A stretch of DNA of 64,000 nt from a virus (Duplodnaviria; Caudoviricetes): positions 1,224 to 65,223 of the IMG/VR virus record IMGVR_UViG_3300036835_000480, one strand, 5' to 3'. A program made the position numbers and the translations under genes. Positions 10,650 through 51,717 of this stretch are shown piece after piece. The notes under the pieces were generated by a model. It worked only from the letters and a program-made list of their open reading frames with translations, ran no database searches and had not been told where the DNA came from. Position 1 is the first letter of the stretch. Every line of letters starts with the position of its first letter.

Positions 10650-10746
10650 TGGCGTGATTGCGCCAGTTTTGGCTATAATTGGGCACGCCAAATGCCCGCG
10701 TGCCGCTAGGGACGGCCGCGGGCGTAGCACCGAAGGAGATGCTTCG
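10650..10746 (+). promoter_or_regulatory. endonuclease-cassette palindrome/-10 plus leader hairpin
   Basis: TGGCGTgattGCGCCA-8-TATAAT; hairpin 10693-10724. Confidence 0.75.
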
Positions 10747-11817
10747 ATGCCTCGTCAGGCTAGCACACGCCAGCCCCCGGTGACGCTTTCGTGCGCCCAG
10801 TGCGGCACGCCGTTTTGGCGTCACGTCTCGGAGGTCCGCAAGAACCCACCAGGGAGCCCCGCCTACTGCTCGCGGGCTTGCTGGCGCCGCGCCATACACG
10901 CCCAGCCCCAGGTCACCTGTACCTGTGAGCACTGCGGCGTGACATTCCAGCGCTGGGCCGCCATCGTCGAGAGTGGCCGAGGCCGCTTCTGTAGCCGGGC
11001 CTGCACCAACGATGGCCGTGATTCGCGGATTGCGCTGACGTGTGAACAGTGTGGTATTACGGTCTACCGCTGGCCCGCCGAACTGCGCCGCTCCCGCGCA
11101 TCCCAACATACCTACTGCTCGCGGGCCTGCGCTACCGAGGCCAAGCGCTCGTCGCTCCCTCGCATGGCCGTGTATGCCATCGTCCATCTGGCGAGTGGCC
11201 GGCTCTACATCGGGGCCACCACGCACCTCGTGCGCCGCTGGGGCAGCCACCGCTGGAAACTCGGCAACGGGTCGCACGAGAACCCCGTCCTGCAAGCGGC
11301 CTGGACGCGCGAAGGTGCCACCGCATTCGAGTTTCGCGTGTTGGAGACGGTGAGTGATCCAACCCAGTTGCCGGTCCGGGAACAAGCGTGGCTGGACGGC
11401 TCCCATAGTGCCGAGCCGGCACAGGGCTTTAATATCCACCCCCAAGCGGAGAGCCCGCGCGGGCGCAAACAGCGACCCGAGGTCATCGCTCGGATGGCCG
11501 AGCGACAGCGAGGGCGCCCCCACTCGGCCGCGACGCGGGCACGTATATCGGCGAGCGCGATGGGGAACCAGCGCGGCGTCGCGACCTTGAGACGGTATAC
11601 CGCACAGGCCCGTGCCTTGTCGGATACGCAAGTGGCCGCGATTAAACAGGCTCTCGCCGCTGGCGACTACGTCGCCGCCATCGCCAGACGGGCAGGGATC
11701 GCGACGTATGCAGTTGAACATATCGCCAGAGGGGACACCTATCGCCATGTCTTGCCCGAATTGGATGCGGCCCTGCGGCAGCGGGCCGATGGGCGCAAGC
11801 GCCGGCGGGGCTCTTAG
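10747..11817 (+). CDS. free-standing GIY-YIG homing endonuclease with zinc repeats and NUMOD3-like motifs
   Basis: AVYAIVHLASGRLYIGAT...RWGSH...HENPVLQAAW...REQAWLD...GFN; HSAATRARIS. Confidence 0.88.
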   Translation: MPRQASTRQPPVTLSCAQCGTPFWRHVSEVRKNPPGSPAYCSRACWRRAIHAQPQVTCTCEHCGVTFQRWAAIVESGRGRFCSRACTNDGRDSRIALTCEQCGITVYRWPAELRRSRASQHTYCSRACATEAKRSSLPRMAVYAIVHLASGRLYIGATTHLVRRWGSHRWKLGNGSHENPVLQAAWTREGATAFEFRVLETVSDPTQLPVREQAWLDGSHSAEPAQGFNIHPQAESPRGRKQRPEVIARMAERQRGRPHSAATRARISASAMGNQRGVATLRRYTAQARALSDTQVAAIKQALAAGDYVAAIARRAGIATYAVEHIARGDTYRHVLPELDAALRQRADGRKRRRGS

Positions 11818-11828
11818 AGCCAGGCCGT

Positions 11829-12359
11829 TCATGCCTCCACCGCCTCTCCCGCAGGGATAATGTCAATGGAACATTGACAATTTCCTAGTCAGGTTCTAGA
11901 GCCCACTTCGGGCAGAGTCCCCACCGGGACGGGGCCGCGATCGGTTAACTCCTGACATTCATCGCAGCTAGCCGCCGATTCACTCAAGACGTTCTGCTCC
12001 ATCGCATCTTCCGGAGCATCTCTGCGGATCACACCGCTATAGGTACCGCGAACCGCACCGCCGTACATGCTCAATCTTTGCATCGCCTGGGGCCCAAAAT
12101 CGCCTGGCGCCGTATCTAAACCTAGTACACTCAAATACGAGTACTGCTGTCTAAGCCGACTCCCCACAAACCCCCGCGTCGAGGCATCCATCTGGTCCCA
12201 GCCGCCCCTGGCCAGCGCCGCCGACGTGACGTGCGCATTCTTGAGGGTTTGTTGAACCCCGAGCCGCCAGGAAAGCGTGTCGAGCCCCTCCGCGCGCCGC
12301 TGGCCCCAGACGGCGAGCTCGGCTTTTGTGGCCGCTACCAGGTCGTCGAGGTTACTCAC
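11829..12359 (-). CDS. minor capsid/head morphogenesis (MuF-like) protein with an in-frame TGA at 11889-11891
   Basis: CDEC...LPEVGSRT[TGA]LGNCQCSIDII; frame continues 19 codons past the TGA; located after the portal gene. Confidence 0.7.
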
Positions 12360-12592
12360 GCCCCGCCTCCGAACTCGGCGCGCAGCGCCGCGGGGTCGAG
12401 GTCGAGCGCCGCGCAGGTGCGGCCGATGGCCCCCTGCGCGCGGACCAGGAAGGCGCGCTGCTCGGGCGCCAGCTCGGTCGCCACGCTGAGCACCAGCGCG
12501 CAGTAGCTCTGCGTGGCGATCAGCAGCGTCACCAGGTCGTAGACCGTGCTAAGCACGGCCACCGTCTGGGCCTCTTGTTCGAGCTGCCCCAT
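12356..12592 (-). CDS. hypothetical protein
   Basis: GTGA overlap with the minor capsid gene. Confidence 0.6.
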   Translation of the reverse strand: MGQLEQEAQTVAVLSTVYDLVTLLIATQSYCALVLSVATELAPEQRAFLVRAQGAIGRTCAALDLDPAALRAEFGGGA

Positions 12593-13003
12593 AGAACGTG
12601 CGGCAGGGGACTGTCGCCTTCAGGCGACAGAGGAATGCCGTCAGCCCGCAGGCTGAGCGCGTCCTCGTCCCCGCCTCACTCCTTCCGTTTATTGGCGTCG
12701 TTACGCCAAATCTCGTATACTACTAGGAGTCGGCTCTCCCTTGCGGACGGCGCCTCCGGGATGCCTCCAACCGCGTAAACGGTGACCCGACATGACCGGG
12801 GTAGCATGGCGAGCCGTGAGGCTCCCGGCGGGCAATCAGCGTACTGCCGTCCGCCCCGGCCGGGCTGCCCTAGGCCCTCGGGCCTAGCTCTCTCGCTAAG
12901 AGCATCACCCAGCCCAACGTAGGGGAGCGGGTGTCGCGAGTCCGGTGTCACGGGTCGAACGCTCCACTTACAAGCCGTTCGCCTTTAGGCGACGGTCGGT
13001 GAT
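12593..13003 (+). mobile_element. non-autonomous, ORF-less IS200/IS605-type element (411 bp)
   Basis: left hairpin CTGTCGCC-TTCA-GGCGACAG; right end CAAGCCGTTCGCCTTTAGGCGACGGTCGGTGAT; removal restores a TGATG stop/start overlap. Confidence 0.8.
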
Positions 13004-13023
13004 CAGCGCACCTGCCAGTTATC
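12726..13023 (+). ncRNA. candidate TnpB omegaRNA-like structured RNA with flank-derived guide
   Basis: downstream of TATACT (12716-12721); several hairpins (GAGCC-GTGA-GGCTC, CTAGGCC-CTCG-GGCCTAG); ends in the IS605 right-end hairpin. Confidence 0.5.
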
Positions 13024-13194
13024 CAGCCGCGGGTTCGGTCGCGGTGCGGGTACGGGCGGGCGCGCTGCGTTCCAGATGGTCGCGCGCGCGATCGCCTTGT
13101 AGGTCACCGCGTAGCCGTTGCCCGTGCCCCCGGCCTTCCCGCTCAGGCGCCAGGCCCAATCGGGGAGATCCCGCCGCGGCGTGCGGGCGCTCAT
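13003..13194 (-). CDS. hypothetical protein
   Basis: TGATG overlap with the upstream ORF. Confidence 0.55.
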   Translation of the reverse strand: MSARTPRRDLPDWAWRLSGKAGGTGNGYAVTYKAIARATIWNAARPPVPAPRPNPRLDNWQVR

Positions 13195-13403
13195 CAGCAC
13201 TGCCGCTGGTACCGCTGCGCCCACTCCCCCGCGAGCGTCAGCAGTCGCGCGAGATAGGGGCTCGCCAGCCACTCGGTCGGCTCGTCGTTGCCCGCTGCCC
13301 GCCGCGCGGCCCACTCGCGTTCGGTCGCCAGGAGCAAGGCCGACTGGAGCGGCTCCGGGTACCGCTCGATCGGCACGCCCCAAACGGACGCCAGGTCACT
13401 CAC
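13194..13403 (-). CDS. hypothetical protein
   Basis: overlaps the portal stop codon. Confidence 0.55.
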   Translation of the reverse strand: MSDLASVWGVPIERYPEPLQSALLLATEREWAARRAAGNDEPTEWLASPYLARLLTLAGEWAQRYQRQC

Positions 13404-14958
13404 GGTGCCGCCCGTTCGCGTGCCCGTTGCGCCGCGCCTTGCCGCTCCCGGCCAGCGCCGCCTCTAGGTCGGGCAGGCCCAACCCCGCGACCCACTCCTG
13501 GGCGCGGGCGATATCCGCAGCGGTGATCCGCACCGGCGGCGGCTCGGCCTTCACCAGCACCTCCCAGCCGCTCGCGGCCTGGAGCGCCGAGGGCTCTAGC
13601 TCGGGGATCGTGTCGCTCGCGCCCGGCTCGGGCGTGGCGGCCGGCGCCGCGGGCTCCTCCGCGGGCACGGGCTCCGGGGCCGGCGGCGGCTGGAGCTGAT
13701 CGGACGGCAGGGCCACGACGGCGACGGGAACGAACAGCACGTCGCCGTCACTGAGCGCCGGCCGCCCGAGGTCGGCGCGCGCCTCATTCACCGTCAAGAA
13801 TGGGCCGCCCACCGCTTCTTTGAGCCGCGCGTATTTCTGCGTCTCGTCCTCGGCGAAGGCGCGCAGGTCGGAGAGGTCGCGAGCGATGCGGATCGTCGGG
13901 TCGTCGGTGAAGTCGGGCAGGAGCTGCGCCTGCAGCTTGGCGTCGTCCTGCGCCCAGAGCCCGACCAGGGTGGCCTCGGTGAAGTACTCGCGCGCCTGGC
14001 GGGCGTTGGCGTAGGTCGCCGCGTCGAGGCCGGCGCCCAGGCCGGCGATGATCGCGGGCACGCGCAAGACGGCGCTGATCCTTTCCTCTGGCACAGAATG
14101 GATGTCACGCAGGAGCATCTGCTCGGGCGAGAAGCCGACCTGGGCCATCGTGGCGTCGCCGCCGATCACGCCGACCCGCCCGCGGCGCTCCTCGCTGTAG
14201 AGCCACTGCGCCGTCTCGGCGAGCTGGCGCGCCTGCTGCTCGGTCAGCGCGTTCTTAGTCGTGATCATCATCCCCGGCAGGGCGTAGTTGCCGAGCAGGG
14301 TATCCGTCCAGCGCGCGGCCCGCTCGTCGGTGGTCACGGCGCGGACCAGGCGCGCCAGCGGCGAGAGGCCGCGGCGGGGGTCGCGGTCGTCGAGGCCGAG
14401 GCGGAAGTGGATCACGTCGCGCGGGTCGAGGTCCTCGAACTGGCCCGAGGCGTAGAACCAGCGGTAGTAGCTGATGAAGTCATTGCCGGTGCTGAAAATC
14501 TGGACCCGCGTCGGGCTCATCGGCCAGAGGCGCACGACCGCGCCGCGCTTCGACGTGCGCTCCTTGCGGACGAAAGCATTGCCGTCAAGGTGGTAGGCCC
14601 AGGTCGCCCAGCCCCATAGCTCCAGCGCGGTGATAAACGGGTTGGGGTTGTCGAGCAGGAGCTGGCAGGGATGGTCGGGCAGCCATGCGCGCTCCTCGTC
14701 GGCGTCGATCTGCCACACCTTGAGCGGCGGCTCGCAGTAGGAGGTGCCGAGCGCGGCCAGGCAGGCGAAGACGGCGCTATTGCCGTCGCCATAGGCCACC
14801 GCGCCGGCGGCCGGCACCGCGGCGGCGCTGCCGCCGTAGGGCGCGAGCCCGTCGGGGTAGACGGGCAGCAGGTCGAGCGCCGCCTTCTGCGCGGGCGCGG
14901 GCGCCGCGGCGCGGGCCAGGAGCGGCGGGCCGAAGCGCAGCCAGTTAGGCACGGGCAC
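13396..14958 (-). CDS. portal protein, HK97 family
   Basis: NSAVFAC, LLDNPNPF, LDGNAF, VIHFR...GLSPL, ATYANA, LTVNEARADLG. Confidence 0.95.
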   Translation of the reverse strand: MPVPNWLRFGPPLLARAAAPAPAQKAALDLLPVYPDGLAPYGGSAAAVPAAGAVAYGDGNSAVFACLAALGTSYCEPPLKVWQIDADEERAWLPDHPCQLLLDNPNPFITALELWGWATWAYHLDGNAFVRKERTSKRGAVVRLWPMSPTRVQIFSTGNDFISYYRWFYASGQFEDLDPRDVIHFRLGLDDRDPRRGLSPLARLVRAVTTDERAARWTDTLLGNYALPGMMITTKNALTEQQARQLAETAQWLYSEERRGRVGVIGGDATMAQVGFSPEQMLLRDIHSVPEERISAVLRVPAIIAGLGAGLDAATYANARQAREYFTEATLVGLWAQDDAKLQAQLLPDFTDDPTIRIARDLSDLRAFAEDETQKYARLKEAVGGPFLTVNEARADLGRPALSDGDVLFVPVAVVALPSDQLQPPPAPEPVPAEEPAAPAATPEPGASDTIPELEPSALQAASGWEVLVKAEPPPVRITAADIARAQEWVAGLGLPDLEAALAGSGKARRNGHANGRHRE

Positions 14959-15133: not shown

Positions 15134-15172
15134 CGAGTTTTCTCCGTATCCGCTGTCTGGTCCCAAAACCCC

Positions 15173-15201
15173 TTGTATTTATCATCAGATAGGTGTACTA
15201 T
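15173..15201 (+). promoter_or_regulatory. conserved cassette promoter P3
   Basis: TTGTAT-17-TACTAT, spacer TTATCATCAGATAGGTG. Confidence 0.8.
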
Positions 15202-15239
15202 AAGAGTAGGATAGGAACGCAGCACGAAGGAGACGCCCG

Positions 15240-24998: not shown

Positions 24999-25687
24999 CG
25001 CTCGACCTCACGCTGCCAGTGGTAGCAGTGGAGATAGGCGCGGAAGGCGCCGAAATCGCGCGCCTGGTGGGCCGCGGCGAACTCGTGGACGTAGAGGCTG
25101 CCCGGCTGCGTGCGCGGGGTCTGGACGACGAGCCGCCGCGCCGGGTACTCGCCGTGGCTCTCGGCGTAGGCCTCCGCATAAGCGGCGAGCTGGAGGCGCC
25201 AGGCGGGATCGGGCGCGGGATTGCCGCGCGGGTGGGCGCTGCCGCTCTTCCAATCGACGATCGCCAGCCCACGGCCCTCGGTAAGCCGCGCGACGAGGTC
25301 CGCCGTGCCCGCGTAGCCGTGCTGGTGCGAGACGAGGAACAACTCAGCGCCGATCACGCGCGCGACGTGGCTATGCCACCAGCCGAGGAAGGCTTCGGCG
25401 AAGGGCTCCAGGTCGGGATCCAGCGACGGCGCCCAATGGCCCGCGGTCGGGTTCGTGGCGAACGCCTGGAAGCCCGCGTGGAGCCGCCGCCCGAAGGTCG
25501 CGCCCAGGTGCATGCGCTCGTCGGCGGCCTCGTTGCCGACGCTACCACGCCACTGCTCCAGCGATTCTTTGCGGATCATGTTCGTGATCGTCGAGACGCG
25601 GACGTAGGGGAAGCCGTCCACGAGATAGTGCGTCCCCTGGTCGGGATCGTCGCGCGGGAGGTACTGCGGGCGCGGCTGCTGGATCAT
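24995..25687 (-). CDS. PD-(D/E)xK exonuclease
   Basis: RVSTI, G.RLH, E.FL...YAGTADL...IVDWKS, QLAAYAEA. Confidence 0.85.
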   Translation of the reverse strand: MIQQPRPQYLPRDDPDQGTHYLVDGFPYVRVSTITNMIRKESLEQWRGSVGNEAADERMHLGATFGRRLHAGFQAFATNPTAGHWAPSLDPDLEPFAEAFLGWWHSHVARVIGAELFLVSHQHGYAGTADLVARLTEGRGLAIVDWKSGSAHPRGNPAPDPAWRLQLAAYAEAYAESHGEYPARRLVVQTPRTQPGSLYVHEFAAAHQARDFGAFRAYLHCYHWQREVER

Positions 25688-25743
25688 GCGACCTCCGCGC
25701 AGGCCCAGACCACGGCGTAGCGCTGGCTCTGCGTGCGGCGGCG
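25684..25743 (-). pseudogene. orphaned original 3' end of the winged-helix gene at 26578-26874
   Basis: translates RRRTQSQRYAVVWACAEVA*, matching RRRTQSKRYAVVW at 26605-26643; its TGA overlaps the next ATG. Confidence 0.85.
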
Positions 25744-25744
25744 G

Positions 25745-26482
25745 CTATTCGAGATGACGCCAGGACCTGCGGTGCTCGATCGCCCGTATCCCTTGCGGCG
25801 TGAGTCCATAGCGCCTCCCGAGTACTACCGATGACACCCCGGCGGCGCGTGCCGCACGTATGGCGCGCACGTCCGCTGCGGTGAGCTTCGCCCGACGGTT
25901 GTCCTCGCCGTAACGGCTGAGCGTCCGTCGAGTCGGGCCGCCCGCCTCCGCCCAGATATGCCCGCGCACGAGCGCCGTCAGCGTGCTATCGCTCAAGCCA
26001 AAGGCATGGCCCAGAGCGGCGAGCGACTCGCCTGCAGCATGGCGCTCGCGAATTGTCGCTGCCTGCTCCGCCGTGATCTTGGCGGCCGTATTGCGCTCAC
26101 CCAGCGGCAGCCTGCCATGTCGCCGCTTGTCGCCCTCGTTCTCTTCCCAGGTCGCCCAGCGCAGATTCCCCAGGTGGTTGTTCGTAGGATCGCCGTCGTA
26201 GTGCGCGACGACATGGCGCGGCGATGGACGCGATCCCAGGAACGCCTTAGCGACCTCGACATGGACCGCGTGCTGGGTCCGAACGTTATTGGCACTAAGG
26301 GTAACGAGCGGATAGCCGGCAGGAGCGGGGGTTTGCTTCAGCACGAGGCGGCGCGCGAAAGTCGTCTTGCCGTTGCGGAAGCGGATCGACGCAATCTGCC
26401 CGTCGGTAGAGACCTCGTAGAGCCCCTCGAAACCAACGACGGGGCGCCACTCGACGGAGGGCGTAGTACACTGGGGATACAT
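25745..26482 (-). CDS. free-standing NUMOD4-HNH homing endonuclease
   Basis: EWRPVVGFEGLYEVSTDG, VHVEVAKAF, HYDGDPTNNHLGNLRWAT..EN; two GE.N..AKLT HTH repeats. Confidence 0.9.
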   Translation of the reverse strand: MYPQCTTPSVEWRPVVGFEGLYEVSTDGQIASIRFRNGKTTFARRLVLKQTPAPAGYPLVTLSANNVRTQHAVHVEVAKAFLGSRPSPRHVVAHYDGDPTNNHLGNLRWATWEENEGDKRRHGRLPLGERNTAAKITAEQAATIRERHAAGESLAALGHAFGLSDSTLTALVRGHIWAEAGGPTRRTLSRYGEDNRRAKLTAADVRAIRAARAAGVSSVVLGRRYGLTPQGIRAIEHRRSWRHLE

Positions 26483-26585
26483 GGGAGTCAACTCCTTCCA
26501 TGTCGGCCCCCGGGGTGTTGGTAGCACCGCCGGGGGTACTCTATGCGGTTGCCTAAAGTATAGCGTTTCTGGCGTCATTACGCCG
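26483..26585 (-). promoter_or_regulatory. endonuclease-cassette palindrome/-10 plus leader hairpin
   Basis: CGGCGTaatgACGCCA-7-TATACT; hairpin 26507-26536. Confidence 0.75.
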
Positions 26586-26874
26586 ATTCCTGGCCCGCCA
26601 CGGTCCATACGACCGCGTAGCGTTTACTTTGCGTCCGGCGCCGCCGACCGCTATCCACGACGAGTCCCTCTCGACGCAGCTCGATCAAACGGGGGCGCGT
26701 TGAATTCTGCTCGATCCCCAGGATGATGCTGATCTGCTCCGCGGTCAGCCCGCCGTGCGCGTAGAGCGTCGCGTAGACCTGCTGCCGCTGGGCCGGCGCG
26801 CTATGGCGAACGGACTGGGCGGCGGCGTAGGACGTATCGGAGTGGGGGGCGTAGGGGGGATGGTCATCGATCAT
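26578..26874 (-). CDS. winged-helix DNA-binding protein
   Basis: DTSYAAA, GLTAEQI..LG...STRPRLIEL...GLVVDSG.RR.T....AVVW. Confidence 0.8.
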   Translation of the reverse strand: MIDDHPPYAPHSDTSYAAAQSVRHSAPAQRQQVYATLYAHGGLTAEQISIILGIEQNSTRPRLIELRREGLVVDSGRRRRTQSKRYAVVWTVAGQESA

Positions 26875-32748: not shown

Positions 32749-34026
32749 CTACTCCGTCGCGCTCAGCCGCCCCGGTACCGCCTCGTCGCGCCGCACCTTG
32801 CCCTCGATCACCGCCCAGACACGGTCGAGGCAGTCCGCGTCGCCCTTCCAGCCCTGGCTCGTGGCGTAGGCGCTGACGCTGCCGCCCAGTGCCCGCTCCA
32901 CGTCCGCCTGGGAGCACTCCAGCTCGTCCAGCGCCGCGGCCATCAGCGCCCGCAGCCCCGCGCCGGTGAACGGGAAGCGCACCGTCGTCGCCGCAGCGAG
33001 CGCCGCCTCGAAGCCGGCCAGGTCCTCCTCCGGCGTGCGCGTCGGACCCGGCGCGTCGGTCAGGACCGGCCGCGGCGGCGGGCGCTCGCCGTTCGACCAC
33101 GCCTTGCTGTCGGGACAGCTCGCCCAGTGCGTCTGGTCCGTCGCCTTGCCGTCGACCACGTCGTAGGGCATCGCCTTGCCGTTCTTGCTCTTCTCCCAGA
33201 CGATCGGGGCGTGGCAGGAGCGGCACTGCTCGAAGCTAGGCGCCGCGGCCCCCGGCGCGCCCACCCCGGCGGCCGCCAAATCCGCGGCGTGATCATCACG
33301 ACTTTGGGCAGGTTGCACAGGTCGCGGTGGGGCAGGCACTCCCTGCCCCAACCAATCCCGTAGAGCAGCGGCGAACTCGGCGCCCGGCCGCGCGATCACC
33401 GCATCGGTTAGCGCGGGGCAGCGCGACTTCGTGATGACCAGGTTGTGCTCGTGATCAAGATCGCCGCAGGCGTCGAACTCGAAGTCCATGTCTTGCCGTT
33501 GGATCGGTGCCAGCCCTATTTTACGGACAGTGGTTTTACCTGTCCGCTCATCCTTCTCCTGCACGTACTCCGTCTTCGCGCGCATCGTGGCGATGATGTG
33601 GCAGGTGCTGCCGAGCATCGCGTCGACCATCGCGTTGTGCTGGGGCGTGACCTTGCGCCAGGCACCGAAAGAGTTACCGCGCTCGCGCGTCGCCTCGCGG
33701 TCGACCATTTCCAGCGCGCCCTCTTTGCCGGTCCAGGCGTGGCTGAGGCTGTCGATAATCAATACGTCGTAGCCCGAAGCCTCGGCGGCCTGGATCGCCT
33801 CGACGTAGGTCGCTGGCGCGAACGTGGTCAGCTCCAACACGTCGAAGGTGAAGTCGCCAGCATACTTCGAGGCGCTACCGCGCTCGGTGTCGATCACCGC
33901 GACCCGCTCACCGAGCGCGGTAGCAACCTTAAGAGCGGTCATCGTCTTCCCCGAGCCAGCCGGTCCGACGAGCCCGAGCCGCAATCGTCCTTGTTGTTGG
34001 GTCGCGCGGCGGAACGTGAAAGCCAT
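32749..34026 (-). CDS. AAA-family ATPase (Sak4-like recombination protein)
   Basis: GPAGSGKT, IDTE, LIIDSLSHAW, HIIATMRAK, FEFD. Confidence 0.85.
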   Translation of the reverse strand: MAFTFRRATQQQGRLRLGLVGPAGSGKTMTALKVATALGERVAVIDTERGSASKYAGDFTFDVLELTTFAPATYVEAIQAAEASGYDVLIIDSLSHAWTGKEGALEMVDREATRERGNSFGAWRKVTPQHNAMVDAMLGSTCHIIATMRAKTEYVQEKDERTGKTTVRKIGLAPIQRQDMDFEFDACGDLDHEHNLVITKSRCPALTDAVIARPGAEFAAALRDWLGQGVPAPPRPVQPAQSRDDHAADLAAAGVGAPGAAAPSFEQCRSCHAPIVWEKSKNGKAMPYDVVDGKATDQTHWASCPDSKAWSNGERPPPRPVLTDAPGPTRTPEEDLAGFEAALAAATTVRFPFTGAGLRALMAAALDELECSQADVERALGGSVSAYATSQGWKGDADCLDRVWAVIEGKVRRDEAVPGRLSATE

Positions 34027-34712
34027 TAGCCCTTCTCCTTCCAGGTCTTGCCTCGTAGAACGTGGCTAATCGTTTGCTGGCAGACGCCGAAGTCGAGGGC
34101 CAGTAGACGTTGAGAGTCCCCGCGGCGGGCGCGGATAGCGCGGACCGCTTCCCAGTTCAATCGCGCGTTCGGGTGGTCCTCGCCGGCCATTGGCGAGAGC
34201 GCGGCGTGGTGACGGCGATGCACGCTTCGCGTCAGTACCTGGAGATTCGCCGGGTCGTTATTGGCCTCATCGCCGTCGATGTGGTGCACGATCTCGCTGT
34301 CGAGCAACGGGCGCCCCAGCACACCCGCCGCGACCGCACGGTGCTGGGCAACATAATGGCTTACGCGATTACCGGGCTGGCGCACGTAGCGGTACCCGCG
34401 GCTCTGAACGACCCCGCCTTTCCAGTGAGGGTTATCTGCCCCAAGGCGCTGCGTTGAGAGCACCGCGCCGAGGCAGGTGGGTGAGCAATAGGCGCGGGTC
34501 TGGCGTCCAATCGCCAGATCGCGCGCCTGCAAGCGATTTGGGCGAAAGGTCGTCCCGCACCCGTCGCAGGCGCGTGGCTCACGCGGATACTGGACCTGGG
34601 CAGCGTAGCCACAGGCGCGCCCGCAATACCTGCCGCGCTTGGGGTCCGTCGAGATCACCCGCGCGGTAAACGGTGCGCCGCAGTGCTGGCATAGGCGGGT
34701 CTCGGTCTTCAT
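34026..34712 (-). CDS. free-standing HNH homing endonuclease
   Basis: NPHWKGG, HRAVA...IVHHIDGDEANNDPANLQVL; GEDHPNARL HTH. Confidence 0.88.
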   Translation of the reverse strand: MKTETRLCQHCGAPFTARVISTDPKRGRYCGRACGYAAQVQYPREPRACDGCGTTFRPNRLQARDLAIGRQTRAYCSPTCLGAVLSTQRLGADNPHWKGGVVQSRGYRYVRQPGNRVSHYVAQHRAVAAGVLGRPLLDSEIVHHIDGDEANNDPANLQVLTRSVHRRHHAALSPMAGEDHPNARLNWEAVRAIRARRGDSQRLLALDFGVCQQTISHVLRGKTWKEKG

Positions 34713-34960
34713 GCCGCCACCGCCAGGTAGCGCAGAAACGCGTTTACGAGCGCCGCGTGAGAGCAGCGCGCGCCGTGGGTGCCGGCCATGCACGAGCAGG
34801 CGATCCGCCCGTTGGGGTTGGCGTAGACCTGGTGCGGCGCGCCGCCCGAGGCGCTGGAGACGGTGAAGCGCCGGCCGTCCACGCTGAGGATGCGCGGGCG
34901 ATCGGGTCGATCGAGCAGCGCGCGGTCGTGCGAGTCGAGGTGTAGGGTGGCCATGCTCAT
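34709..34960 (-). CDS. small SWIM-type zinc-finger protein
   Basis: FTVSS.S...H.V...CSC......CSH; AAGGAG RBS. Confidence 0.65.
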   Translation of the reverse strand: MSMATLHLDSHDRALLDRPDRPRILSVDGRRFTVSSASGGAPHQVYANPNGRIACSCMAGTHGARCSHAALVNAFLRYLAVAA

Positions 34961-45440: not shown

Positions 45441-45960
45441 GAGGCCCGCCGTGACGCGCCGCCTGACCGCCGCGCAGACGACCTGGCGCGCCGCCCGCCG
45501 CGCCTGGGGCGGCTTACTCTGCTACTACCTCCGCGCCTACCTGGCGCGCCGGGAGGCCGCCTGCCCGAGCGCCCCCGCTCCTACCACCCGGGCAACCACC
45601 GCCCTCGGCCTACGCGCCGACGCCCCAGCCGAGGAGCACCCCCAGGAGCGCGACGAGCAGCAGCGCCAGCGCGACCAGGACGGCGCGGAGCAGTAGCGCG
45701 CGCGGCGTCACCCCAGCCCCCTCCCCCCGTTGCCCCTGCGCGGCGTTCTCGGCCGTCGGGGGTGCTAACTACCTACGCGAACCCCGGACCGCCCCTACGG
45801 CCGTCCTGGTGCGAATACGGGCCTACCGGTGGCCCCGCCGCGGGGCACGGGCGCTCCTAGCTCGGCGCCAGCCAGAGCAGCAGGTTCACCAGCGCCAGGA
45901 CCGCGCCCAGCAGCGCCATGTCGCTCCAGGTCCAGTGCTCGGTCATGCGCGACTGCTTTC

Positions 45961-46058
45961 TGGCGTCGTTACGCCAATTCTGCTAGAATTGTAGACCGCA
46001 AAAGGCCGGGCGCTGTTAGAGCAGCCCCGACCGTGACGCCGAGCGCTGGAGACGCCCG
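45961..46058 (+). promoter_or_regulatory. endonuclease-cassette palindrome/-10 plus leader hairpin
   Basis: TGGCGTcgttACGCCA-7-TAGAAT; hairpin 46004-46032. Confidence 0.78.
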
Positions 46059-46763
46059 ATGCCTCATCAGTCTACCAAGCTCCTCCGAGCCTGTGAATAC
46101 TGCGGTAGTTCGTTTTCTATCTACCCCGCCTGGCTTAGACTTGGTGCAGGCCGGCATTGTTCCAACGTATGCGCGGGCCGGTCACGCCGACGCTCATTAG
46201 CCGATCGCCTCTGGGCGCGCGTGGTGAAGACTCCCACTTGCTGGCTCGTAAGCGGCCATCTGCTGCCTAGCGGGTATGCGCGAGTTATGCGTGGCGATGG
46301 CGATCGGACTAGTATCAGCGCACATCGGGCAGCCTGGATGCTCGCCAGCGGAGCCACGATCCCGCCTGGATACTCGGTGCTCCATACTTGTGACAATCGC
46401 GCCTGCGTCCGCAATGATGAGCCCGGTATCTATATCATCCACGGCGTTGAATATCAGCGGTGGGGGCACCTGTTTCTCGGGACCCAGCAACAGAATATCC
46501 ACGATATGTATTCCAAAGGACGCGGCTACAGTCGGACCGAGTGGCATCGGGAGAGCGCCAGGGCGCATCTCGCCGAGGTGCGTAACCGCGCTCGTGGAGA
46601 AGCACATCATCGGGCTCGGCTGACGGAAGCACAAGTCTTAGCCATCAGGGCCGAGTATCTACCCTTCAAGATGACTGCTCGCATGCTTGCCGCTCGCTAC
46701 GGGGTCAGCATCCCAACTATCAGGTTTATCCTACGGCGACGTATCTGGCAGCATCTGCCCTAA
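46059..46763 (+). CDS. free-standing HNH homing endonuclease
   Basis: CWL...GY...AHRAAW...VLHTCDNRACV...HLFLGT.QQN..DM..KGR; GE.H.RARLT HTH. Confidence 0.9.
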   Translation: MPHQSTKLLRACEYCGSSFSIYPAWLRLGAGRHCSNVCAGRSRRRSLADRLWARVVKTPTCWLVSGHLLPSGYARVMRGDGDRTSISAHRAAWMLASGATIPPGYSVLHTCDNRACVRNDEPGIYIIHGVEYQRWGHLFLGTQQQNIHDMYSKGRGYSRTEWHRESARAHLAEVRNRARGEAHHRARLTEAQVLAIRAEYLPFKMTARMLAARYGVSIPTIRFILRRRIWQHLP

Positions 46764-47431
46764 TGCCCAACACCGCGCACGGTATTGATAACCGCCTGTC
46801 CCGACTGTGCTGCTGCCCCAAATCCTTCTTGATCCGTAGCAAGGTGCGTATTCACCATGCTATCCAGCGCGCTCTGCATCGCGTCCATGCAATCGCCCTG
46901 GATATACCCCAACTGGTTGATCAGGGCTTCGACTTCGGCGCTGCTCACATCGTCCTCCTCGTAGGGCATGACAACCATCGAGAATGGACCCAGGCCCTCG
47001 AACTGGGCGCGGCTCATCGCCTGTCCGACGCCCTTCCAGCCAGGCGCACTATTCGCCAGCGCCAGCGTGCCGTCCGCATTGATTCCGCGGCAGCCGCACC
47101 AGTGGTACCAGCCGCGGCCCCCGAGCAGGACCGGATACGTCCCGGCTAGCGCCAGCACGTTCTCCCACGTCGCATAGGCGATATTCGCCGCGGGTACCGC
47201 GTAGTGCTCCTGGATGTACTGCACGAGCCCAGCGCCCGAGGCGTCGAGCAGCCCGACCGCCGGGTCTACCGGCCACGGCGACATGTCCGCCACCAGGGCA
47301 GCTTTATCCACCTCGTAGCCCAGACTCGTGAGCCCCCACCAGGTCGAACAGATCGAGCACGTCCAGTCGGTCATCTGGAGATGCACCGGCGCGCTCGCAT
47401 CGTACGGCTCGGGCGCGATCCCGTCACTCAT
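46760..47431 (-). CDS. putative endolysin, C39-like cysteine peptidase
   Basis: Q..DWTCS (Cys), WYHW (His), LANSAPG (Asn); follows tail genes and a holin-like gene. Confidence 0.7.
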   Translation of the reverse strand: MSDGIAPEPYDASAPVHLQMTDWTCSICSTWWGLTSLGYEVDKAALVADMSPWPVDPAVGLLDASGAGLVQYIQEHYAVPAANIAYATWENVLALAGTYPVLLGGRGWYHWCGCRGINADGTLALANSAPGWKGVGQAMSRAQFEGLGPFSMVVMPYEEDDVSSAEVEALINQLGYIQGDCMDAMQSALDSMVNTHLATDQEGFGAAAQSGQAVINTVRGVGH

Positions 47432-48271: not shown

Positions 48272-49644
48272 TGGCTGCTCAGTCGCACACAGGCAAAGTA
48301 CGACTCTGCCGCACCGACGGTGATCGCGCCGCCGCTGTTTTGATAGAAATCGACGTTGACCCAGGCCCCCACGTTCAGGCGCGCCAGTCCCACGATGCCC
48401 ATCCGCGGGTAGGCCGACGCTGACGGCGCCACCGCATTGCCCCCAATGACGAGCCCGCTATCCGTCACGAACCGCCCCAGGCGGGTGCCCACCGCGCTGA
48501 GATTGTTGATCTGGAGCAGCGCCGTAAACAGATACAGCCCCCCGAGTCCGGTCGGGATCGTAATCCGATCATTGTTCGTCGCATTGTCATGGAACGCATC
48601 CGTATCGCTAAACTCCGTATTCCAGGTAATCGGCGTAAAGACCGAATCGTTCACGCTCTGATCGCCGCCGCTCTTCGCCACGATCGCGTAGGGGCTGCGC
48701 GGCAGATCGCCGAGCGCGATCGCCGCCAGCGCGTGCGCGTGGTCGCGCCGCGCGGCGACGCCCGCGCTCCCGACGGCGCCCGCGCCGCCGTAGGCCAGCG
48801 CCGGCGGCAGCGTGGCGTCGAAGAGCGGCAGCGTGGCATCCGATCGCAGCAGCGTCGGCGCACTGCCGGGCGCCGCGGCGGTGCCGAAGACGAGCGCCGG
48901 CGTGGCGAACGCCTCGCGCCCGTGTTTATGGTCGCTCCGCGCTACCGTCGTCGCGCTACCCGCCGCGGCGGCATCCCCGACCGCGCTGGTGCCGGGCGTC
49001 CCGAAGGCTTCGCGCCCGTGCTTATGATCGGCGCGCGCCAGCGTCGTCGCGGTGCCGTCCGCCGCCGCATCGCCGACCGCACTGCTCCCCGGGCTGCCGT
49101 AGCCCGGCATGGGGTTCGCCGGCATCCCGTGCTTGTGATCCGAGCGCGCATCCGTCGTCGCCGTCCCTGCCGCCGGACTATCCCCGAACGCCGCGGTGCC
49201 GGGCGTGCCATAGCCTTCCCGCCCGTGGACGTGGTCGCTGCGCGCCAGCGTCCCCGCCGTCCCGGCGCTCGCGCTATCCCCGACCGCGGAGTTACCGGGC
49301 GTCCCAAACGCCTCGCGCCCGTGCCGGTGGTCGCTGCGCGCGAGGCTCGCTGCCGCCCCCGCCGCGGCGCTGTCCCCCGGTGCGGAGCCGCCGGGCGTGC
49401 CGAACGCCTCCCGCCCGTGCGTGTGCTGGCGCCGCGCCGCGAACCCGTCCGCCGCGCCGGCCGCCGCCGCATCACCGGGCGCCGAGGTCGAGGGCAGCGT
49501 CGTGTCGTCGAAGGCCACGCCTGGATCGCCCGGGGGGCCCTGTGGGCCGGTAGGGCCGGGGGCGCCGGGGCTTCCCGCCGGGCCCGTGGCCCCATCTGCC
49601 CCAGGCGGACCCGCGATGTTACCCGTAAGCGTCCAGACCATCAA
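48268..49644 (-). CDS. tail fibre protein with collagen start, DHxH repeats and C1q-like tip
   Basis: ARSDHxHGREAFGTPG repeats; ITWNTEFSDTDAFH...RITIPTG.GGLY. Confidence 0.8.
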   Translation of the reverse strand: MMVWTLTGNIAGPPGADGATGPAGSPGAPGPTGPQGPPGDPGVAFDDTTLPSTSAPGDAAAAGAADGFAARRQHTHGREAFGTPGGSAPGDSAAAGAAASLARSDHRHGREAFGTPGNSAVGDSASAGTAGTLARSDHVHGREGYGTPGTAAFGDSPAAGTATTDARSDHKHGMPANPMPGYGSPGSSAVGDAAADGTATTLARADHKHGREAFGTPGTSAVGDAAAAGSATTVARSDHKHGREAFATPALVFGTAAAPGSAPTLLRSDATLPLFDATLPPALAYGGAGAVGSAGVAARRDHAHALAAIALGDLPRSPYAIVAKSGGDQSVNDSVFTPITWNTEFSDTDAFHDNATNNDRITIPTGLGGLYLFTALLQINNLSAVGTRLGRFVTDSGLVIGGNAVAPSASAYPRMGIVGLARLNVGAWVNVDFYQNSGGAITVGAAESYFACVRLSSQ

Positions 49645-49648
49645 AAAC

Positions 49649-49748
49649 TCCCGTCTGGACGCCGAATTCGGGTATACTGTAAATACCTGAATAGCCCCGC
49701 GGCGCTAGAGACGCCCGGGGCCGCGGCACCCCAACGTTGGAGGTTAGG
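49649..49748 (+). promoter_or_regulatory. endonuclease-cassette (partial) palindrome/-10 plus leader hairpin
   Basis: TCCCGTctggACGCCG-8-TATACT; hairpin 49694-49721. Confidence 0.68.
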
Positions 49749-50342
49749 ATGCTTCCGCAGTCTACCACGCCCCATCATTGCGCGGTCCCCACCTGCACGC
49801 GCGCGCCTCGTGGCGGTCGCCAGTATTGCTCCTTGCATTACGGTCGGCTGCGAGCCGGCCGCCCCCTCGACGCGCCGGTACGGGCCTGGTCGCATACGAA
49901 AGTCCCTTGCCTCGTGGCGGGCTGCGCTACTCCCGGTCGCATCAATGGGTTGTGTCCGACTCACGCCAGTCGCCAGTGGCGTGGGGCCCCCTTGGAAGGA
50001 CCGATCCAACAAAAGCTGCGTGGCACGTTGGAGGAACGGATTGCGGCCTACTCGCATCGCGAGCCATCTGGTTGCTGGATCTGGGATGGCACACTGAACG
50101 AGCATGGCTACGGCGTCATCGGATACCGTGGGCGGATGCGGCGCGTCCACCGCATTACCTACCGCCTCGCTTATGGCGACGATGCGTTGCCTGAGGGCTG
50201 GCATATCGATCATTTTGTCTGCCGTACGCCTCGCTGTATCGAGCCCGAACACCTACGTGCACTCCCACAGAGCGGTCATAGCCGGCATCATTACGGTGAA
50301 CGCCTGATCGGTCCCGACGGTCGACTCCTGCCTAAGACTTAA
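49749..50342 (+). CDS. free-standing HNH homing endonuclease
   Basis: two C..P.C...C..H repeats; GCWIWDG...GYG...VHR..Y...IDHFVCRTPRCIEPEHL. Confidence 0.88.
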   Translation: MLPQSTTPHHCAVPTCTRAPRGGRQYCSLHYGRLRAGRPLDAPVRAWSHTKVPCLVAGCATPGRINGLCPTHASRQWRGAPLEGPIQQKLRGTLEERIAAYSHREPSGCWIWDGTLNEHGYGVIGYRGRMRRVHRITYRLAYGDDALPEGWHIDHFVCRTPRCIEPEHLRALPQSGHSRHHYGERLIGPDGRLLPKT

Positions 50343-51717
50343 GGTACGTATTTCCCGTATCCACATCTACGTATGAATCGCCGACGTGGCCCAGACTATC
50401 TGACGGAACGCCAGATCCCGATAACATCGCTGCACCCGCCGGCCCGGCTGGGCCTGGTGGTCCCGGTGGCCCAGGGCTCCCGCCGCCATCACCGCCGCCG
50501 CCCTGCGCCAGCAGGTCCCAGCTCTCGGGGTGTAGATCGGGCGGCGCGTTCTCGCTGATCGCCGTCGCCACGTAGGAGCTGCCGTTATAGGCGACGGCAT
50601 CGGGCGGCTGGTAGCGTATCGCGGCGCTCCAGTCGCCGCGCCAGACCAGCCCTGGCGGGCCGGGAACGCCGGCGCCGCCGCCCCCACCGCCGACGATGGC
50701 GACGCTACCGGGGGGGCCGGGCCGGCCCTCTGGGCCTCGCGGGCCCGGGCTGCCCGTCTCGCCGCGGGGTCCTTGCGGACCAGCCACGCCCGGCGCTCCA
50801 TCACGTCCTACAGGGCCCGGTGCACCATCGCGTCCAGCGGGCCCGCGGCTCCCCCGGGCGCCTGGCGCGCCGTCCTGTCCGTCCCGCCCCGGGGCGCCAT
50901 CCCGCCCGTCCTGGCCGTCCTTACCGGGGAGACCCCGCGGGCCACGCGGCCCGACCGGACCGACCTCGCCCGGCGCGGCGACGAGGTCCCAGGCGCTCGG
51001 CGTCTCGGTGGGCGGCTCGCCGCGCGTCGGCCGGCGCGCCACCCAGGCGCCGCCGCCGTAGCCGACGATATCGCCCGCGGCGTAGGGGGCGTCCGGCCGC
51101 CAGGCGCCGGCCCAGCGCACGGCCGACCCTCCCGCGAGGCCAGCCGGGCCGATCCTGCCTGGCGGCCCAGGGGGACCAGCAGGCCCGACCACACCCCGCG
51201 GGAGGGTCAGCGCGAGAATCGCCGCGTGCGGCGTGCCAACGTTGCGGACCGCGGCATCGCTGCCCGGCGGCCCGGTCGTCGTCGTCCCGACCTCGATGGT
51301 CGCCGCTTTCCCCGCCGCGCCATCCTGCCCCGGACTCCCATCCCGGCCCGCCGGGCCACTGGGCCCCGGCGGCGGGAGCGGCTGGAACGGTGGCAGCAGC
51401 GGCGGCGCGAGGAGCGAGGGGACCGCCGCGCGCTCGGCCGGCCCCATACGGGCCACCACGCGCGCGTAGCCGGGGAGCCCCGTACGCGCGATGGCGAGGC
51501 GGCTAGCGAGCTGGAGCAGCGCGGGCTCGTAGGGCTCCGCAGCCAGCGCCTCGGCGGCCGCGGCCTGCTCCAGCCCGGCGAGCAGGTGCCCGCTGGCCTC
51601 CGCCCAGCGGTCCGGGGCGAGGAGCCCCGCGGCCAGTTGATCGGTGAGGCTGCGGAGCGCGCCGCGCGTGCGGTCGATCTGCGCGGCGACCGCGCGCGCC
51701 CCGATGCAGACGGCCAT
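50332..51717 (-). CDS. collagen-like fibre protein with carbohydrate-binding-like repeats
   Basis: long Gly-X-Y tracts; W.G.W....Y..GD.V.Y.G..Y/W modules. Confidence 0.8.

What the first reader, a model, noticed from the sequence alone, without database searches (positions are those of the whole stretch)
10650..50480. Candidate system: co-regulated selfish nuclease cassettes with a shared promoter box, a shared leader RNA and recoded neighbouring genes
Seen: four endonuclease genes of different architecture (GIY-YIG 10747, NUMOD4-HNH 26482, HNH 46059, HNH 49749) share the same upstream layout of palindrome, -10 hexamer, bulged hairpin and RBS. Each abuts a phage gene whose adjacent end has atypical AT-rich synonymous codons. 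An ORF-less IS200/IS605 element carries the same promoter box. Established: free-standing homing endonucleases in T-even phages spread by intronless homing and spare their own allele through target-site divergence. Inference: unrelated selfish nucleases have converged on one induction signal and one translational switch, forming a portable cassette type. I do not know of a description of this combination.
Basis: partly seen in the sequence, partly recalled or inferred. Interest (0 to 1): 0.88.

Follow-up and report, generated by a model that had tools for sequence, protein, structure and literature searches.

The report
Shared leader heading phage nuclease cassettes
In an uncultured high-GC soil phage, four different selfish nuclease genes begin with the same inherited promoter and folded-RNA leader, which in related phage fragments also heads a helicase-methylase gene and a lipoprotein-like gene, so it looks like a portable expression module rather than a convergent nuclease-only signal.

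Summary
The core observation is real. The window is a 65-kb, 70% GC phage record. Four Pfam-confirmed nuclease genes each follow a homologous ~130-nt module: a TGGCGT-N4-ACGCCA palindrome, a GCTATAAT-like -10, hairpin P1 with a bulged C, helix P2 pairing the AUG, GGAG, and six nucleotide-conserved codons. A profile finds exactly these four copies (E 1e-29 to 1e-30), plus a box-only copy before a 410-bp ORF-less insert.

I found six more copies in four other records. Overall 8 of 10 cargos are nucleases; the others are an SNF2-methylase and a lipoprotein-like gene. Two further HNH genes in this genome lack the leader.

- **Structure:** both helices covary (14 of 18 pairs compensatory; 0 of 500 shuffles reach it).
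- **Age:** copies are only 41-69% identical, so they are old homologues, not convergent and not recent duplicates.
- **Insertion:** one cassette replaced its target gene's last 20 codons and left the ancestral end as an orphan. That proves insertion with recoding there; elsewhere only low GC3 is seen.
- **Unsupported:** the IS200/IS605 label, DNA-damage induction and a translational switch.

The closest known analogues are T4 PeSL cassettes and T4 homing-endonuclease regulation. I rate it a new variant of a known kind, of moderate interest.

The parts
10646..10770 (+). Leader copy 1: palindrome 10650-10665 (1 mismatch), -10 TATAAT 10674-10679, P1 hairpin about 10694-10723, P2 about 10727-10750 enclosing GGAG and the ATG at 10747, then conserved codons 2-6.
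   Evidence: nhmmer E 1.2e-30; CM R1 77.4 bits; palindrome; fold.
10747..11817 (+). GIY-YIG + NUMOD3 free-standing endonuclease gene with N-terminal Cys-rich repeats, antisense to its flanking minus-strand genes.
   Evidence: Pfam PF01541 31.7 bits, PF07460; PF01541 genome scan.
11889..12359 (-). Neighbour gene (phrog_24776, function unknown), convergent with the GIY-YIG gene. Its 3' half has low GC3 (0.5-0.7).
12593..13002 (+). 410-bp ORF-less insert between the stop of 13003-13200(-) and the ATG of 12356-12592(-). It carries box copy 5 (perfect palindrome 12693-12708, -10 TATACT 12716-12721) but not P1 or P2. Similar hairpins lie near both ends (12610-12632, 12975-12995).
   Evidence: No Rfam hit; no TnpA or TnpB.
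26459..26596 (-). Leader copy 2: palindrome 26570-26585 overlapping the stop codon of the winged-helix gene, -10 TATACT 26557-26562, and P1/P2/TIR within 26459-26550.
   Evidence: nhmmer E 5.3e-29; CM 87.3 bits.
25745..26482 (-). NUMOD4 + HNH_3 endonuclease gene with a C-terminal HTH.
   Evidence: Pfam; HNH_3 genome scan.
26578..26637 (-). Cassette-borne, recoded last 20 codons of the winged-helix (MarR-like) gene 26578-26874(-).
   Evidence: the C-termini of relatives differ from it; PHROG.
25684..25758 (-). Orphan ancestral 3' end of the winged-helix gene, starting at the HNH stop codon. Its TGA overlaps the ATG of the exonuclease-like gene 24995-25687(-). 12 of 13 residues and 30 of 39 nt match the attached end.
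45953..46082 (+). Leader copy 3: perfect palindrome 45961-45976, TGC-TAGAAT extended -10 at 45981-45989, then P1/P2/TIR.
   Evidence: nhmmer E 5.7e-30; CM 70.4 bits.
46059..46763 (+). HNH_3 endonuclease gene (Cys-rich N-terminus, C-terminal HTH). Its stop overlaps the stop of the convergent gene 46760-47431(-).
   Evidence: Pfam.
46760..46840 (-). Low-GC3 tail (0.45 over the last 20 codons) of gene 46760-47431(-). The tail still codes for a segment shared with the one full-length homologue found.
49641..49772 (+). Leader copy 4: degenerate palindrome (only the right arm ACGCC is kept), -10 TATACT 49673-49678, then P1/P2/TIR.
   Evidence: nhmmer E 1.8e-30; CM 85.3 bits.
49749..50342 (+). HNH_3 endonuclease gene lying antisense between two collagen-like tail-fibre genes.
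   Evidence: Pfam; PHROGs of the neighbours.
50332..50470 (-). Low-GC3 tail (0.5-0.55) of tail-fibre gene 50332-51717(-), overlapping the HNH stop.
1366..2340 (-). HNH_3 gene WITHOUT the shared leader. It has its own GCTATACT -10 (about 2330), a different hairpin, and a GTG start.
34026..34793 (-). HNH_3 gene WITHOUT the shared leader. It is the second gene behind the TGCTACAAT promoter at about 35003.

Best explanation
The four nuclease genes are free-standing homing-endonuclease cassettes. Each carries a copy of one ancient, homologous expression head.

The head has three parts. First, a host-type extended -10 promoter whose -35/spacer region (-35 to -20) is occupied by a sequence-conserved palindrome, probably an operator for one trans-acting DNA-binding protein. 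Second, a ~60-nt 5'UTR with a stable hairpin P1 (11 bp, conserved bulged C) and a weaker helix P2 that holds the SD in or near its loop and pairs the AUG. Third, a translation-initiation region conserved at nucleotide level to about +18.

The module gives an inserted gene its own transcription and translation start, whatever its site or orientation; three of the four lie antisense inside late operons. It travels with, or recombines onto, mobile accessory genes of this phage lineage. These are mostly endonucleases, but also a helicase-methylase and a lipoprotein-like gene.

Shown: the homology, the copy distribution, the covariation, the cargo spectrum, and one insertion with target-end replacement. 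Inferred: promoter activity, operator function, RNA-level function of P1 and P2, and the mode of spread.
For: - Exactly four full copies in the genome, all directly 5' of nuclease ORFs. The hypergeometric P is 5.6e-6, given 6 nuclease genes among about 91 crude gene calls.
- Six further copies in four other records, found by cargo-blind pattern scans and a covariance model. Cargos by Pfam: HNH_3 x2; HNH_3 just below the cut-off x1; PF01844 HNH x1; SNF2+N6_N4 methylase x1; none (a lipoprotein-like signal read by eye) x1.
- Covariation: 94.4% of cells paired versus 71.7% in shuffles (0 of 500 reach it); 14 of 18 pairs have compensatory changes; slid controls reach at most 48%; P1 9 of 11 pairs, P2 5 of 7.
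- P1 is in the MFE fold of 9 of 9 copies folded alone.
- Codons 2-6 are conserved by nucleotide, not residue. The third base of codon 5 and the first of codon 6 are invariant while residues vary.
- Pairwise identity is 41-69%, and window copies are not each other's closest relatives in 2 of 4 cases.
- Insertion evidence: the orphan 3' end at 25684-25758 matches the C-termini of cassette-free relatives. In L007 the leader and its gene sit between homologues of two genes that are adjacent in the window.
- Precedents for each element exist in T4-type phages.
Against: - There are no expression data. The TSS, promoter activity and operator binding are inferred from consensus only. The consensus scan flagged just the 12692 box as sigma-70-like among the three box copies in the 19 kb it covered.
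- Predicted SD/AUG accessibility of the four leaders does not differ from 53 control genes (start unpaired 0.27 vs 0.44, one-sided MWU p = 0.19; the SD region is if anything more open).
- P1 has no G-U pairs, so it would fold equally on either strand or as DNA. RNA-level function is therefore not proven.
- The alignment used for the pair counts was fitted to the model. The independent MAFFT/RNAalifold runs gave the same two helices but with more broken cells.
- The palindrome is missing or degenerate in 5 of the 10 full-leader copies (window 49641, L033 and all three in the L027 record), so it is not integral to the module.
- There are only ten copies from five records, and no cassette-free close relative could be fetched at DNA level.
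Confidence: 0.6

Rival explanations
1. Autoregulation of the I-TevI type. The palindrome is an operator bound by the endonucleases themselves, through the C-terminal HTH module that several of them share. Each nuclease, or any one of them in trans, would then repress all the cassettes.
For: The palindrome overlaps the -35/spacer region of the promoter. NUMOD4-HNH, HNH 46059 and GIY-YIG share a C-terminal HTH-like module (blastp; HTH_38 hints). The window copy whose nuclease lacks that module (49749) has the most degenerate palindrome. I-TevI autorepression is established (passages in PMC2988022).
Against: L007's perfect palindrome heads a helicase-methylase with no such module. The L027 HNH with the HTH has no palindrome. 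The palindrome also heads an ORF-less unit. I made no test of binding, or of similarity between the operator and any homing site.
Confidence: 0.15
2. A DNA-level recombination linker (the PeSL mechanism). The conserved ~130 bp matters mainly as a patch of homology, or as a DNA hairpin, at which cassettes are exchanged between co-infecting phages. Expression would be secondary.
For: P1 is all Watson-Crick, so strand-neutral. Homology ends sharply at about +18, and different ORFs are fused behind it. PeSLs of ~100 bp mediate such shuffling (PMC2839356). Window copies are sometimes closest to copies in other records.
Against: Cassettes carry one copy at the 5' side only, not flanking pairs. At 41-69% identity the copies are too diverged for efficient homologous recombination with each other. 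Compensatory changes in P2 around the AUG, and the conserved GGAG-to-ATG spacing, point to selection on expression.
Confidence: 0.15
3. One reading: unrelated nucleases converged independently on one induction signal and one translational switch.
For: The nucleases belong to different families, and the layout is the same.
Against: Alignable similarity extends through spacers, the bulge and the first codons. Helices change by compensatory substitution, as expected of diverging homologues. Non-nuclease cargos carry the leader. Two nuclease genes lack it. There is no evidence for an induction signal, and accessibility is no different from controls.
Confidence: 0.04

Closest known systems
PeSL (promoter-early stem-loop) regulatory cassettes of T4-type phages (Arbiol et al. 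2010, PMC2839356; Comeau et al. 2014, PMC4122927; abstracts and passages read).
   Same: A composite module of ~100 bp, repeated within a phage genome: a sigma-70-type promoter, a GC-rich stem-loop, then the SD and ATG of the downstream gene. It is associated with variable accessory genes and gives them autonomous expression. One PeSL subclass has the stem-loop downstream of the -10.
   Different: PeSLs flank ORFans on both sides, cluster in hyperplastic regions, and act as terminators and as recombination sites, making mini-circles. In the passages I read they are treated as a mechanism separate from homing endonucleases. Here the module is 5'-only and sits mostly on endonuclease genes, several inside structural operons. 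It also has a protein-type palindrome, a second helix over the AUG, and conserved first codons. It occurs in a 70% GC phage unrelated to T4.
Regulation of T4-family homing endonuclease genes: I-TevI/II/III, segB, and mobE of Aeh1 (Edgell, Gibb and Belfort 2010 review, PMC2988022; passages read).
   Same: Nuclease genes with their own promoters just upstream. RNA hairpins at the ribosome-binding site. An operator overlapping the promoter (I-TevI autorepression). Free-standing genes spread by intronless homing with co-conversion of flanks, some in antisense orientation (segD).
   Different: In T4 each nuclease has its own, non-homologous regulatory region. The inhibitory hairpin forms only on read-through transcripts and is bypassed by the late promoter. 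Here one homologous leader serves different nuclease families, and both helices lie downstream of the promoter, so they are present on its own transcript.
C-terminal partial duplications of genes beside homing endonuclease ORFs in fungal mitochondria, e.g. atp6 and cob of Endoconidiophora resinifera (PMC6279837; passages read).
   Same: An endonuclease ORF sits between a gene and a duplicated C-terminal fragment of that gene, as with the winged-helix gene at 25684-26637.
   Different: Those are organellar, LAGLIDADG or GIY-YIG, and often degenerate. Here it is a phage HNH cassette whose promoter box is written over the replacement stop codon.
Repeated regulatory motifs of actinobacteriophages: Cluster O 17-bp dyad repeats with SigA-like promoters (PMC4351075; passages read) and Cluster K start-associated sequences (PMC3203893; search listing only).
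   Same: Short, sequence-invariant palindromes or start-proximal motifs repeated before many genes of a high-GC phage, suggesting one trans-acting factor.
   Different: Those motifs are short (13-17 bp), are not attached to a covarying RNA structure, and are not linked to endonuclease or other mobile cargos.

Membership tests
Free-standing homing endonuclease cassette (intronless homing) | Encodes a GIY-YIG, HNH or similar homing-type nuclease domain. | tested here: met
   Pfam hits above cut-off for all four.
Free-standing homing endonuclease cassette (intronless homing) | Not embedded in an intron or intein; lies between or at the ends of host genes. | tested here: met
   No Rfam intron family anywhere in the window. 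The ORFs lie between genes.
Free-standing homing endonuclease cassette (intronless homing) | Presence/absence polymorphism, with altered (cleavage-immune) flanking sequence in the carrier. | tested here: inconclusive
   Met for one cassette by internal evidence (orphan ancestral end plus a recoded attached end). For the other three there is only low GC3 at one flank and no orphan. No cassette-free relative's DNA could be fetched.
Free-standing homing endonuclease cassette (intronless homing) | The enzyme cleaves the nuclease-less allele near the insertion site. | not testable with these tools
   Needs biochemistry or co-infection crosses.
PeSL cassettes | A composite conserved promoter + stem-loop + SD/ATG module of ~100 bp, repeated in one genome. 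| tested here: met
PeSL cassettes | Copies flank the mobile ORF on both sides and can recombine to excise it. | tested here: not met
   Only one copy per cassette, at the 5' side. No second copy within the genome other than those listed.
PeSL cassettes | The stem-loop acts as a transcription terminator or attenuator. | not testable with these tools
   P1 lacks a U tract. Only the GIY-YIG copy's palindrome was flagged as terminator-like.
IS200/IS605 (for the ORF-less element 12593-13002) | A TnpA (Y1) and/or TnpB gene, or for a derivative a cognate one in the same genome. | tested here: not met
   PF01797 and PF07282 give no match in the record at E <= 1. The record is an estimated 75% complete.
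IS200/IS605 (for the ORF-less element 12593-13002) | A recognisable omega-RNA / IS605-associated RNA, or multiple copies. | tested here: not met
   No Rfam hit at E <= 10 other than one chance lncRNA match. Single copy by blastn. No match in the phage collection.
IS200/IS605 (for the ORF-less element 12593-13002) | Subterminal hairpins at both ends; insertion without target duplication. | tested here: inconclusive
   Similar hairpins lie near both ends, and the insert sits exactly between a stop and the next ATG. Such hairpins are not specific to this family.
RBS-sequestering hairpin control (T4 type) | A stable structure occludes the SD and/or AUG and lowers translation. | tested here: inconclusive
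   P2 pairs the U and G of the AUG in all copies and covaries. Predicted accessibility is no lower than in 53 control genes.
Any described RNA family (Rfam 15) | Match at the gathering score. | tested here: not met
   0 matches in the whole window.

The most novel reading that the evidence does not exclude
The leader is an undescribed cis-regulatory RNA plus operator that forms a regulon of selfish and accessory genes. One phage (or host) DNA-binding protein would act at the palindrome. One RNA-binding protein would recognise the bulged-C hairpin P1, much as a coat-protein or RegA-type translational operator is recognised. Together they would time and limit expression of otherwise unrelated endonucleases and morons across a lineage of high-GC soil phages. 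The module including the first six codons would be the unit that captures new cargos.
Probability: 0.3. Interest if true: 0.75.

Novelty: new variant of a known kind. Interest (0 to 1): 0.55.

Why it matters
Free-standing homing endonucleases are usually pictured as lone invaders, each improvising its own regulation. Here different nuclease families, and other accessory genes, share one inherited promoter and leader, including a covarying two-helix RNA with no Rfam match.

That gives a concrete, searchable marker for mobile cassettes in uncultured high-GC phages. It is also a candidate new cis-regulatory RNA family, and a compact natural expression module for GC-rich hosts.

The orphaned gene end at the NUMOD4-HNH cassette is a clean record, within a single genome, of how such an insertion keeps its target gene intact while changing the sequence at the probable target site.

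Tried and rejected
- **Close relatives at DNA level.**
  - The search for related loci with the portal protein gave none. With the exonuclease-like neighbour it gave only a 26%-identical locus at 38% GC. With the winged-helix alignment it gave one 41%-identical provirus with no leader.
  - So cassette-free junctions could be judged only at protein level.
- **Sequencing runs.**
  - Six soil-metagenome runs hold the stretch.
  - Laying four of them on 9000-28999 gave contigs identical to the window and many short spurious joints. None matched a cassette boundary. No conclusion is drawn from this.
  - In three runs the contigs break at the 12610-12638 hairpin, which may be only an assembler effect of the palindrome.
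- **Pattern hits rejected as chance.** I rejected these by nhmmer, GC content and eye.
  - L001-L006 and L008-L011.
  - L015-L017.
  - L026, L028 and L029.
  - 37 of 38 genome-contig loci, including L040 (E 5e-4, but no hairpin).
  - The covariance-model hit at window 36593-36670 (14 bits) is a terminator-like hairpin.
- **Orphan 3' ends.** I searched for them at the GIY-YIG, HNH 46059 and HNH 49749 cassettes and found none.
- **ORF-less element.** It shows no similarity to any of the four nucleases. Its fold is not unusual (z = -1.55).
- **Pairing ideas.** I examined by eye whether the conserved CAGUCUACC pairs with the 5' end of the transcript or with the P1 loop, and dropped the idea as inconsistent between copies. 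An SD:CCUC (codons 2-3) pairing appears in some MFE folds but was not tested further.
- **Palindrome alone.** At up to 2 mismatches it is not enriched in the window (9 found versus 4.8 expected). Its significance comes from its fixed position before the -10.
PeSL supplementary tables might list endonuclease-associated PeSLs that I could not see.

Full report
**What the window is.** The window is bases 1224-65223 of a single 65,223-bp IMG/VR virus record, estimated 75% complete. It is 64-75% GC throughout.
- It encodes a major head protein, a protease, a portal, a large terminase, a DnaC-like loader, tail fibres and an HNH-fused helicase. The helicase is 39% identical to that of a Saccharomonospora phage.
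- There are no tRNAs and no Rfam family at gathering score.
- Because raw ORF lists are noise at this GC content, I made a crude gene map of about 91 genes from GC3-minus-GC2 bias.

**Checking the observation.** Pfam confirms the four nuclease genes and their different architectures:
- GIY-YIG+NUMOD3 at 10747-11817(+);
- NUMOD4+HNH_3 at 26482-25745(-);
- HNH_3 at 46059-46763(+);
- HNH_3 at 49749-50342(+).

Their upstream regions align over about 130 nt. A profile built from the four and run over the whole record returns exactly those four sites (E 1.2e-30 to 5.3e-29). Next comes a box-only match at 12688-12728 (E 6.5e-4), and nothing else is below E 0.04.

With 6 nuclease genes among about 91 genes, four of four leaders landing on nucleases has P = 5.6e-6.

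- The first has its own, unrelated -10, hairpin and GTG leader.
- The second is the second gene behind a TGCTACAAT promoter.

So 4 of 6 nuclease genes carry the shared leader.

**Anatomy of the leader.** From 5' to 3' the elements are as follows.
1. A palindrome, TGGCGT-N4-ACGCCA.
   - It is perfect at 12693 and 45961, has one mismatch at 10650 and 26570, and is degenerate at 49650.
   - If the TSS lies about 7 nt after the -10, it spans about -35 to -20.
   - It is sequence-conserved rather than covarying, which suggests a protein site.
   - Its left arm was read as a weak -35 by the consensus scan at 12692 only.
2. A GC-TATAAT / TGC-TAGAAT type -10, which is an extended -10 in two window copies.
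3. 12-20 unstructured nt.
4. P1, an 11-bp GC-rich hairpin with a 6-7-nt loop. It has a bulged nucleotide (C in 8 of the 9 aligned copies) between two invariant G-C pairs (alignment printed).
5. P2, whose 5' arm (an invariant CA plus flanks) pairs with the UG of the AUG and flanking bases, with GGAG in or next to the loop.
6. The ATG and five codons fitting ATG NNN CNN CAG KST ASY. Here the third base of codon 5 and the first of codon 6 are invariant while the residues differ (P/Y/L/Q/S/H; A/C/S). This is nucleotide-level constraint, ending at about +18, roughly the span of an initiating ribosome (the last point is my inference).

**Structure tests.**
- RNAalifold on MAFFT alignments of six and then eight copies predicts P1 and P2, with 12 of 18 pairs showing compensatory change.
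- On a model-fitted alignment of nine copies, 94.4% of cells pair against 71.7% in shuffles (0 of 500 reach it). 14 of 18 pairs have changes on both sides. Slid controls give 37-48%. P1 covaries at 9 of 11 pairs and P2 at 5 of 7. The fit to the model biases this upward.
- P1 appears in the MFE fold of all nine copies folded alone.
- P1 contains no G-U pair, so it cannot be assigned to one strand or to RNA rather than DNA.
- A partition-function test found the AUG and SD of the four window leaders no less accessible than those of 53 other genes (0.27 vs 0.44 for the start, p = 0.19; the SD is more open). A translational switch is therefore not demonstrated.

**The leader elsewhere.** Cargo-blind DNA patterns, filtered with the profile, and a covariance model R1 found six more copies in four records.
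- L007 (IMG/VR, 17 kb): perfect palindrome. The cargo is a 751-aa SNF2 helicase + N6_N4 methylase.
- L018 (metagenome, 1.3 kb): perfect palindrome. The cargo is an HNH_3-like ORF just below Pfam's cut-off, sharing the MYPQCT start of the window's NUMOD4 gene.
- The L027 record (IMG/VR, 24 kb): three copies without the palindrome. One heads a lipoprotein-like ORF next to the tape-measure gene. It has no Pfam hit; I read the signal peptide and Cys by eye. Two head HNH_3 genes, and both of those were found by the model without any constraint on the codons.
- L033 (a 4-kb contig binned in a MAG): a PF01844 HNH.

The tally is 8 of 10 nuclease cargos, or 4 of 6 outside the window. Four of the external copies were found with patterns that required the conserved codons, so diversity at the 3' end is under-sampled.

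**Descent, not convergence.** Pairwise identity over the transcribed part is 41-69%. The NUMOD4 leader is closest to L007's, and the HNH 46059 leader is closest to L018's. The copies are therefore old and have moved between genomes with, or onto, their cargos.

The nuclease proteins themselves are mosaics. They share Cys-rich N-terminal repeats (GIY-YIG and HNH 46059) and C-terminal HTH modules. The leader behaves as one more shuffled module.

**Insertion and recoding.**
- Immediately after the NUMOD4-HNH stop, in another frame, lies ...SRRRTQSQRYAVVWACAEVA*. Its TGA overlaps the ATG of the next gene.
- The winged-helix gene upstream of the cassette now ends ...RRRRTQSKRYAVVWTVAGQESA*. That is 12 of 13 identical residues and 9 of 39 nt different, 7 of them synonymous. 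Its last codons and stop are written into the palindrome.
- Homologues from other metagenomes end ...QSQRYAVVWAVAEIEL, like the orphan. So the orphan is ancestral, and the cassette brought a replacement end.
- A first-reader side note (e1-6206542) pointed me to this junction. I re-derived it independently.
- No orphan exists at the other three cassettes. There, the gene whose 3' end meets the nuclease's 3' end has GC3 of 0.45-0.7 against a genome mean of 0.85.
- For 46760-47431, the low-GC3 tail still encodes a segment conserved in the only full-length homologue. This fits co-converted donor sequence, but it is untested.
- In L007 the leader and its gene lie between homologues of two genes that are adjacent in the window.

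**The ORF-less element.** The stretch 12593-13002 sits exactly between a stop and the next ATG of a tightly packed minus-strand operon.
- It carries a perfect box, 95% identical over 21 nt to that of HNH 46059, but not P1 or P2.
- It has no ORF, no similarity to the nucleases, no Rfam match, an unremarkable fold, no TnpA or TnpB in the record, and no relatives in 50,697 phage records.
- It may be a small-RNA unit or a decayed cassette. The IS200/IS605 label rests only on two similar end hairpins.

**Context.** The phage also has a second, unrelated repeated promoter family (TTGCAT-N17-TAC(A/T)AT). Its seven copies all face plus-strand genes (compare note e1-6206534). Repeated promoter modules are therefore a general habit of this genome.

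**Comparison with the literature.**
- PeSLs in T4-type phages are ~100-bp promoter + stem-loop + SD/ATG modules attached to variable genes. They mediate shuffling (PMC2839356 and PMC4122927; abstracts and passages).
- T4-family endonuclease genes have their own promoters, RBS hairpins and, for I-TevI, an operator over the promoter (PMC2988022; passages).
- C-terminal gene duplications beside endonuclease ORFs are recorded in fungal mitochondria (PMC6279837; passages).
- Cluster O mycobacteriophages carry 34 copies of a 17-bp dyad repeat (PMC4351075; passages).
- Full-text searches combining homing endonuclease, promoter, hairpin/stem-loop and phage or actinobacteriophage terms returned no report of a homologous leader shared by different endonuclease families. 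This covers only the held library, and supplements were closed.

**Verdict.** The interpretation needs correcting: this is a homologous, portable expression head preferentially (not exclusively) attached to homing-endonuclease cassettes. It carries a probable shared operator in some lineages and a covarying two-helix leader of unproven function. It is a new variant of known kinds (PeSL-like modules; regulated free-standing endonucleases).

Noticed in passing
window 5565, 6744, 15173, 16100, 39662, 42358, 43287 (all +): A second repeated promoter family: seven copies of about 32 nt, TTGCAT-N17-TAC(A/T)AT, each facing a plus-strand gene or gene block. Two copies (5543-5603 and 15151-15211) are 80% identical over 61 nt.
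   Followed up: partly
window 2280-2340 (-): The leaderless HNH_3 gene 1366-2280 has its own GCTATACT -10. It is followed by a perfect 11-bp hairpin whose 3' arm overlaps the SD, then a GTG start. The design matches the shared leader but the sequence is unrelated.
   Followed up: partly
window 34501-34516: A one-mismatch copy of the TGGCGT-N4-ACGCCA palindrome lies inside the leaderless HNH_3 gene 34026-34793. It may be chance.
   Followed up: no
window 7676-7738 and 45767-45829: A 63-nt repeat (71% identity) containing a GC-rich hairpin. The second copy lies about 130 nt upstream of the HNH 46059 leader. It may be a terminator of the preceding plus-strand genes.
   Followed up: no
window 12610-12638: In three soil-metagenome runs the assembled contigs that match the window perfectly end and restart within the left-end hairpin of the ORF-less element. 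This could be an assembler effect of the palindrome, or a hint of a population variant.
   Followed up: no
window 48897-49479: Four tandem-like ~96-184-nt repeats (65-70% identity) inside tail-fibre gene 48268-49644. They match its repeated '...DHKHGREAFGTPG...' protein units.
   Followed up: no
window 27424-29541 (-): A 705-aa helicase with an N-terminal PF01844 HNH domain. This is a fused nuclease-helicase, not a homing cassette.
   Followed up: partly
window 34960-35030: Divergent promoter-like -10 boxes (TGCTACAAT on the minus strand, GGTACAAT on the plus strand) in an AT-rich gap. The gap lies next to several small HTH genes (35027-35248, 35465-35761, 35758-36549), so this is a likely regulatory centre and a source of candidate palindrome-binding proteins.
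   Followed up: no
window 11829-11900 and 19210-22857: First-reader side notes mention a UGA / SECIS-like hairpin at the end of gene 11889-12359 and a ParB-methyltransferase-PAPS-reductase-like operon. I saw the PAPS-reductase-like PHROG hit but did not examine either claim.
   Followed up: no
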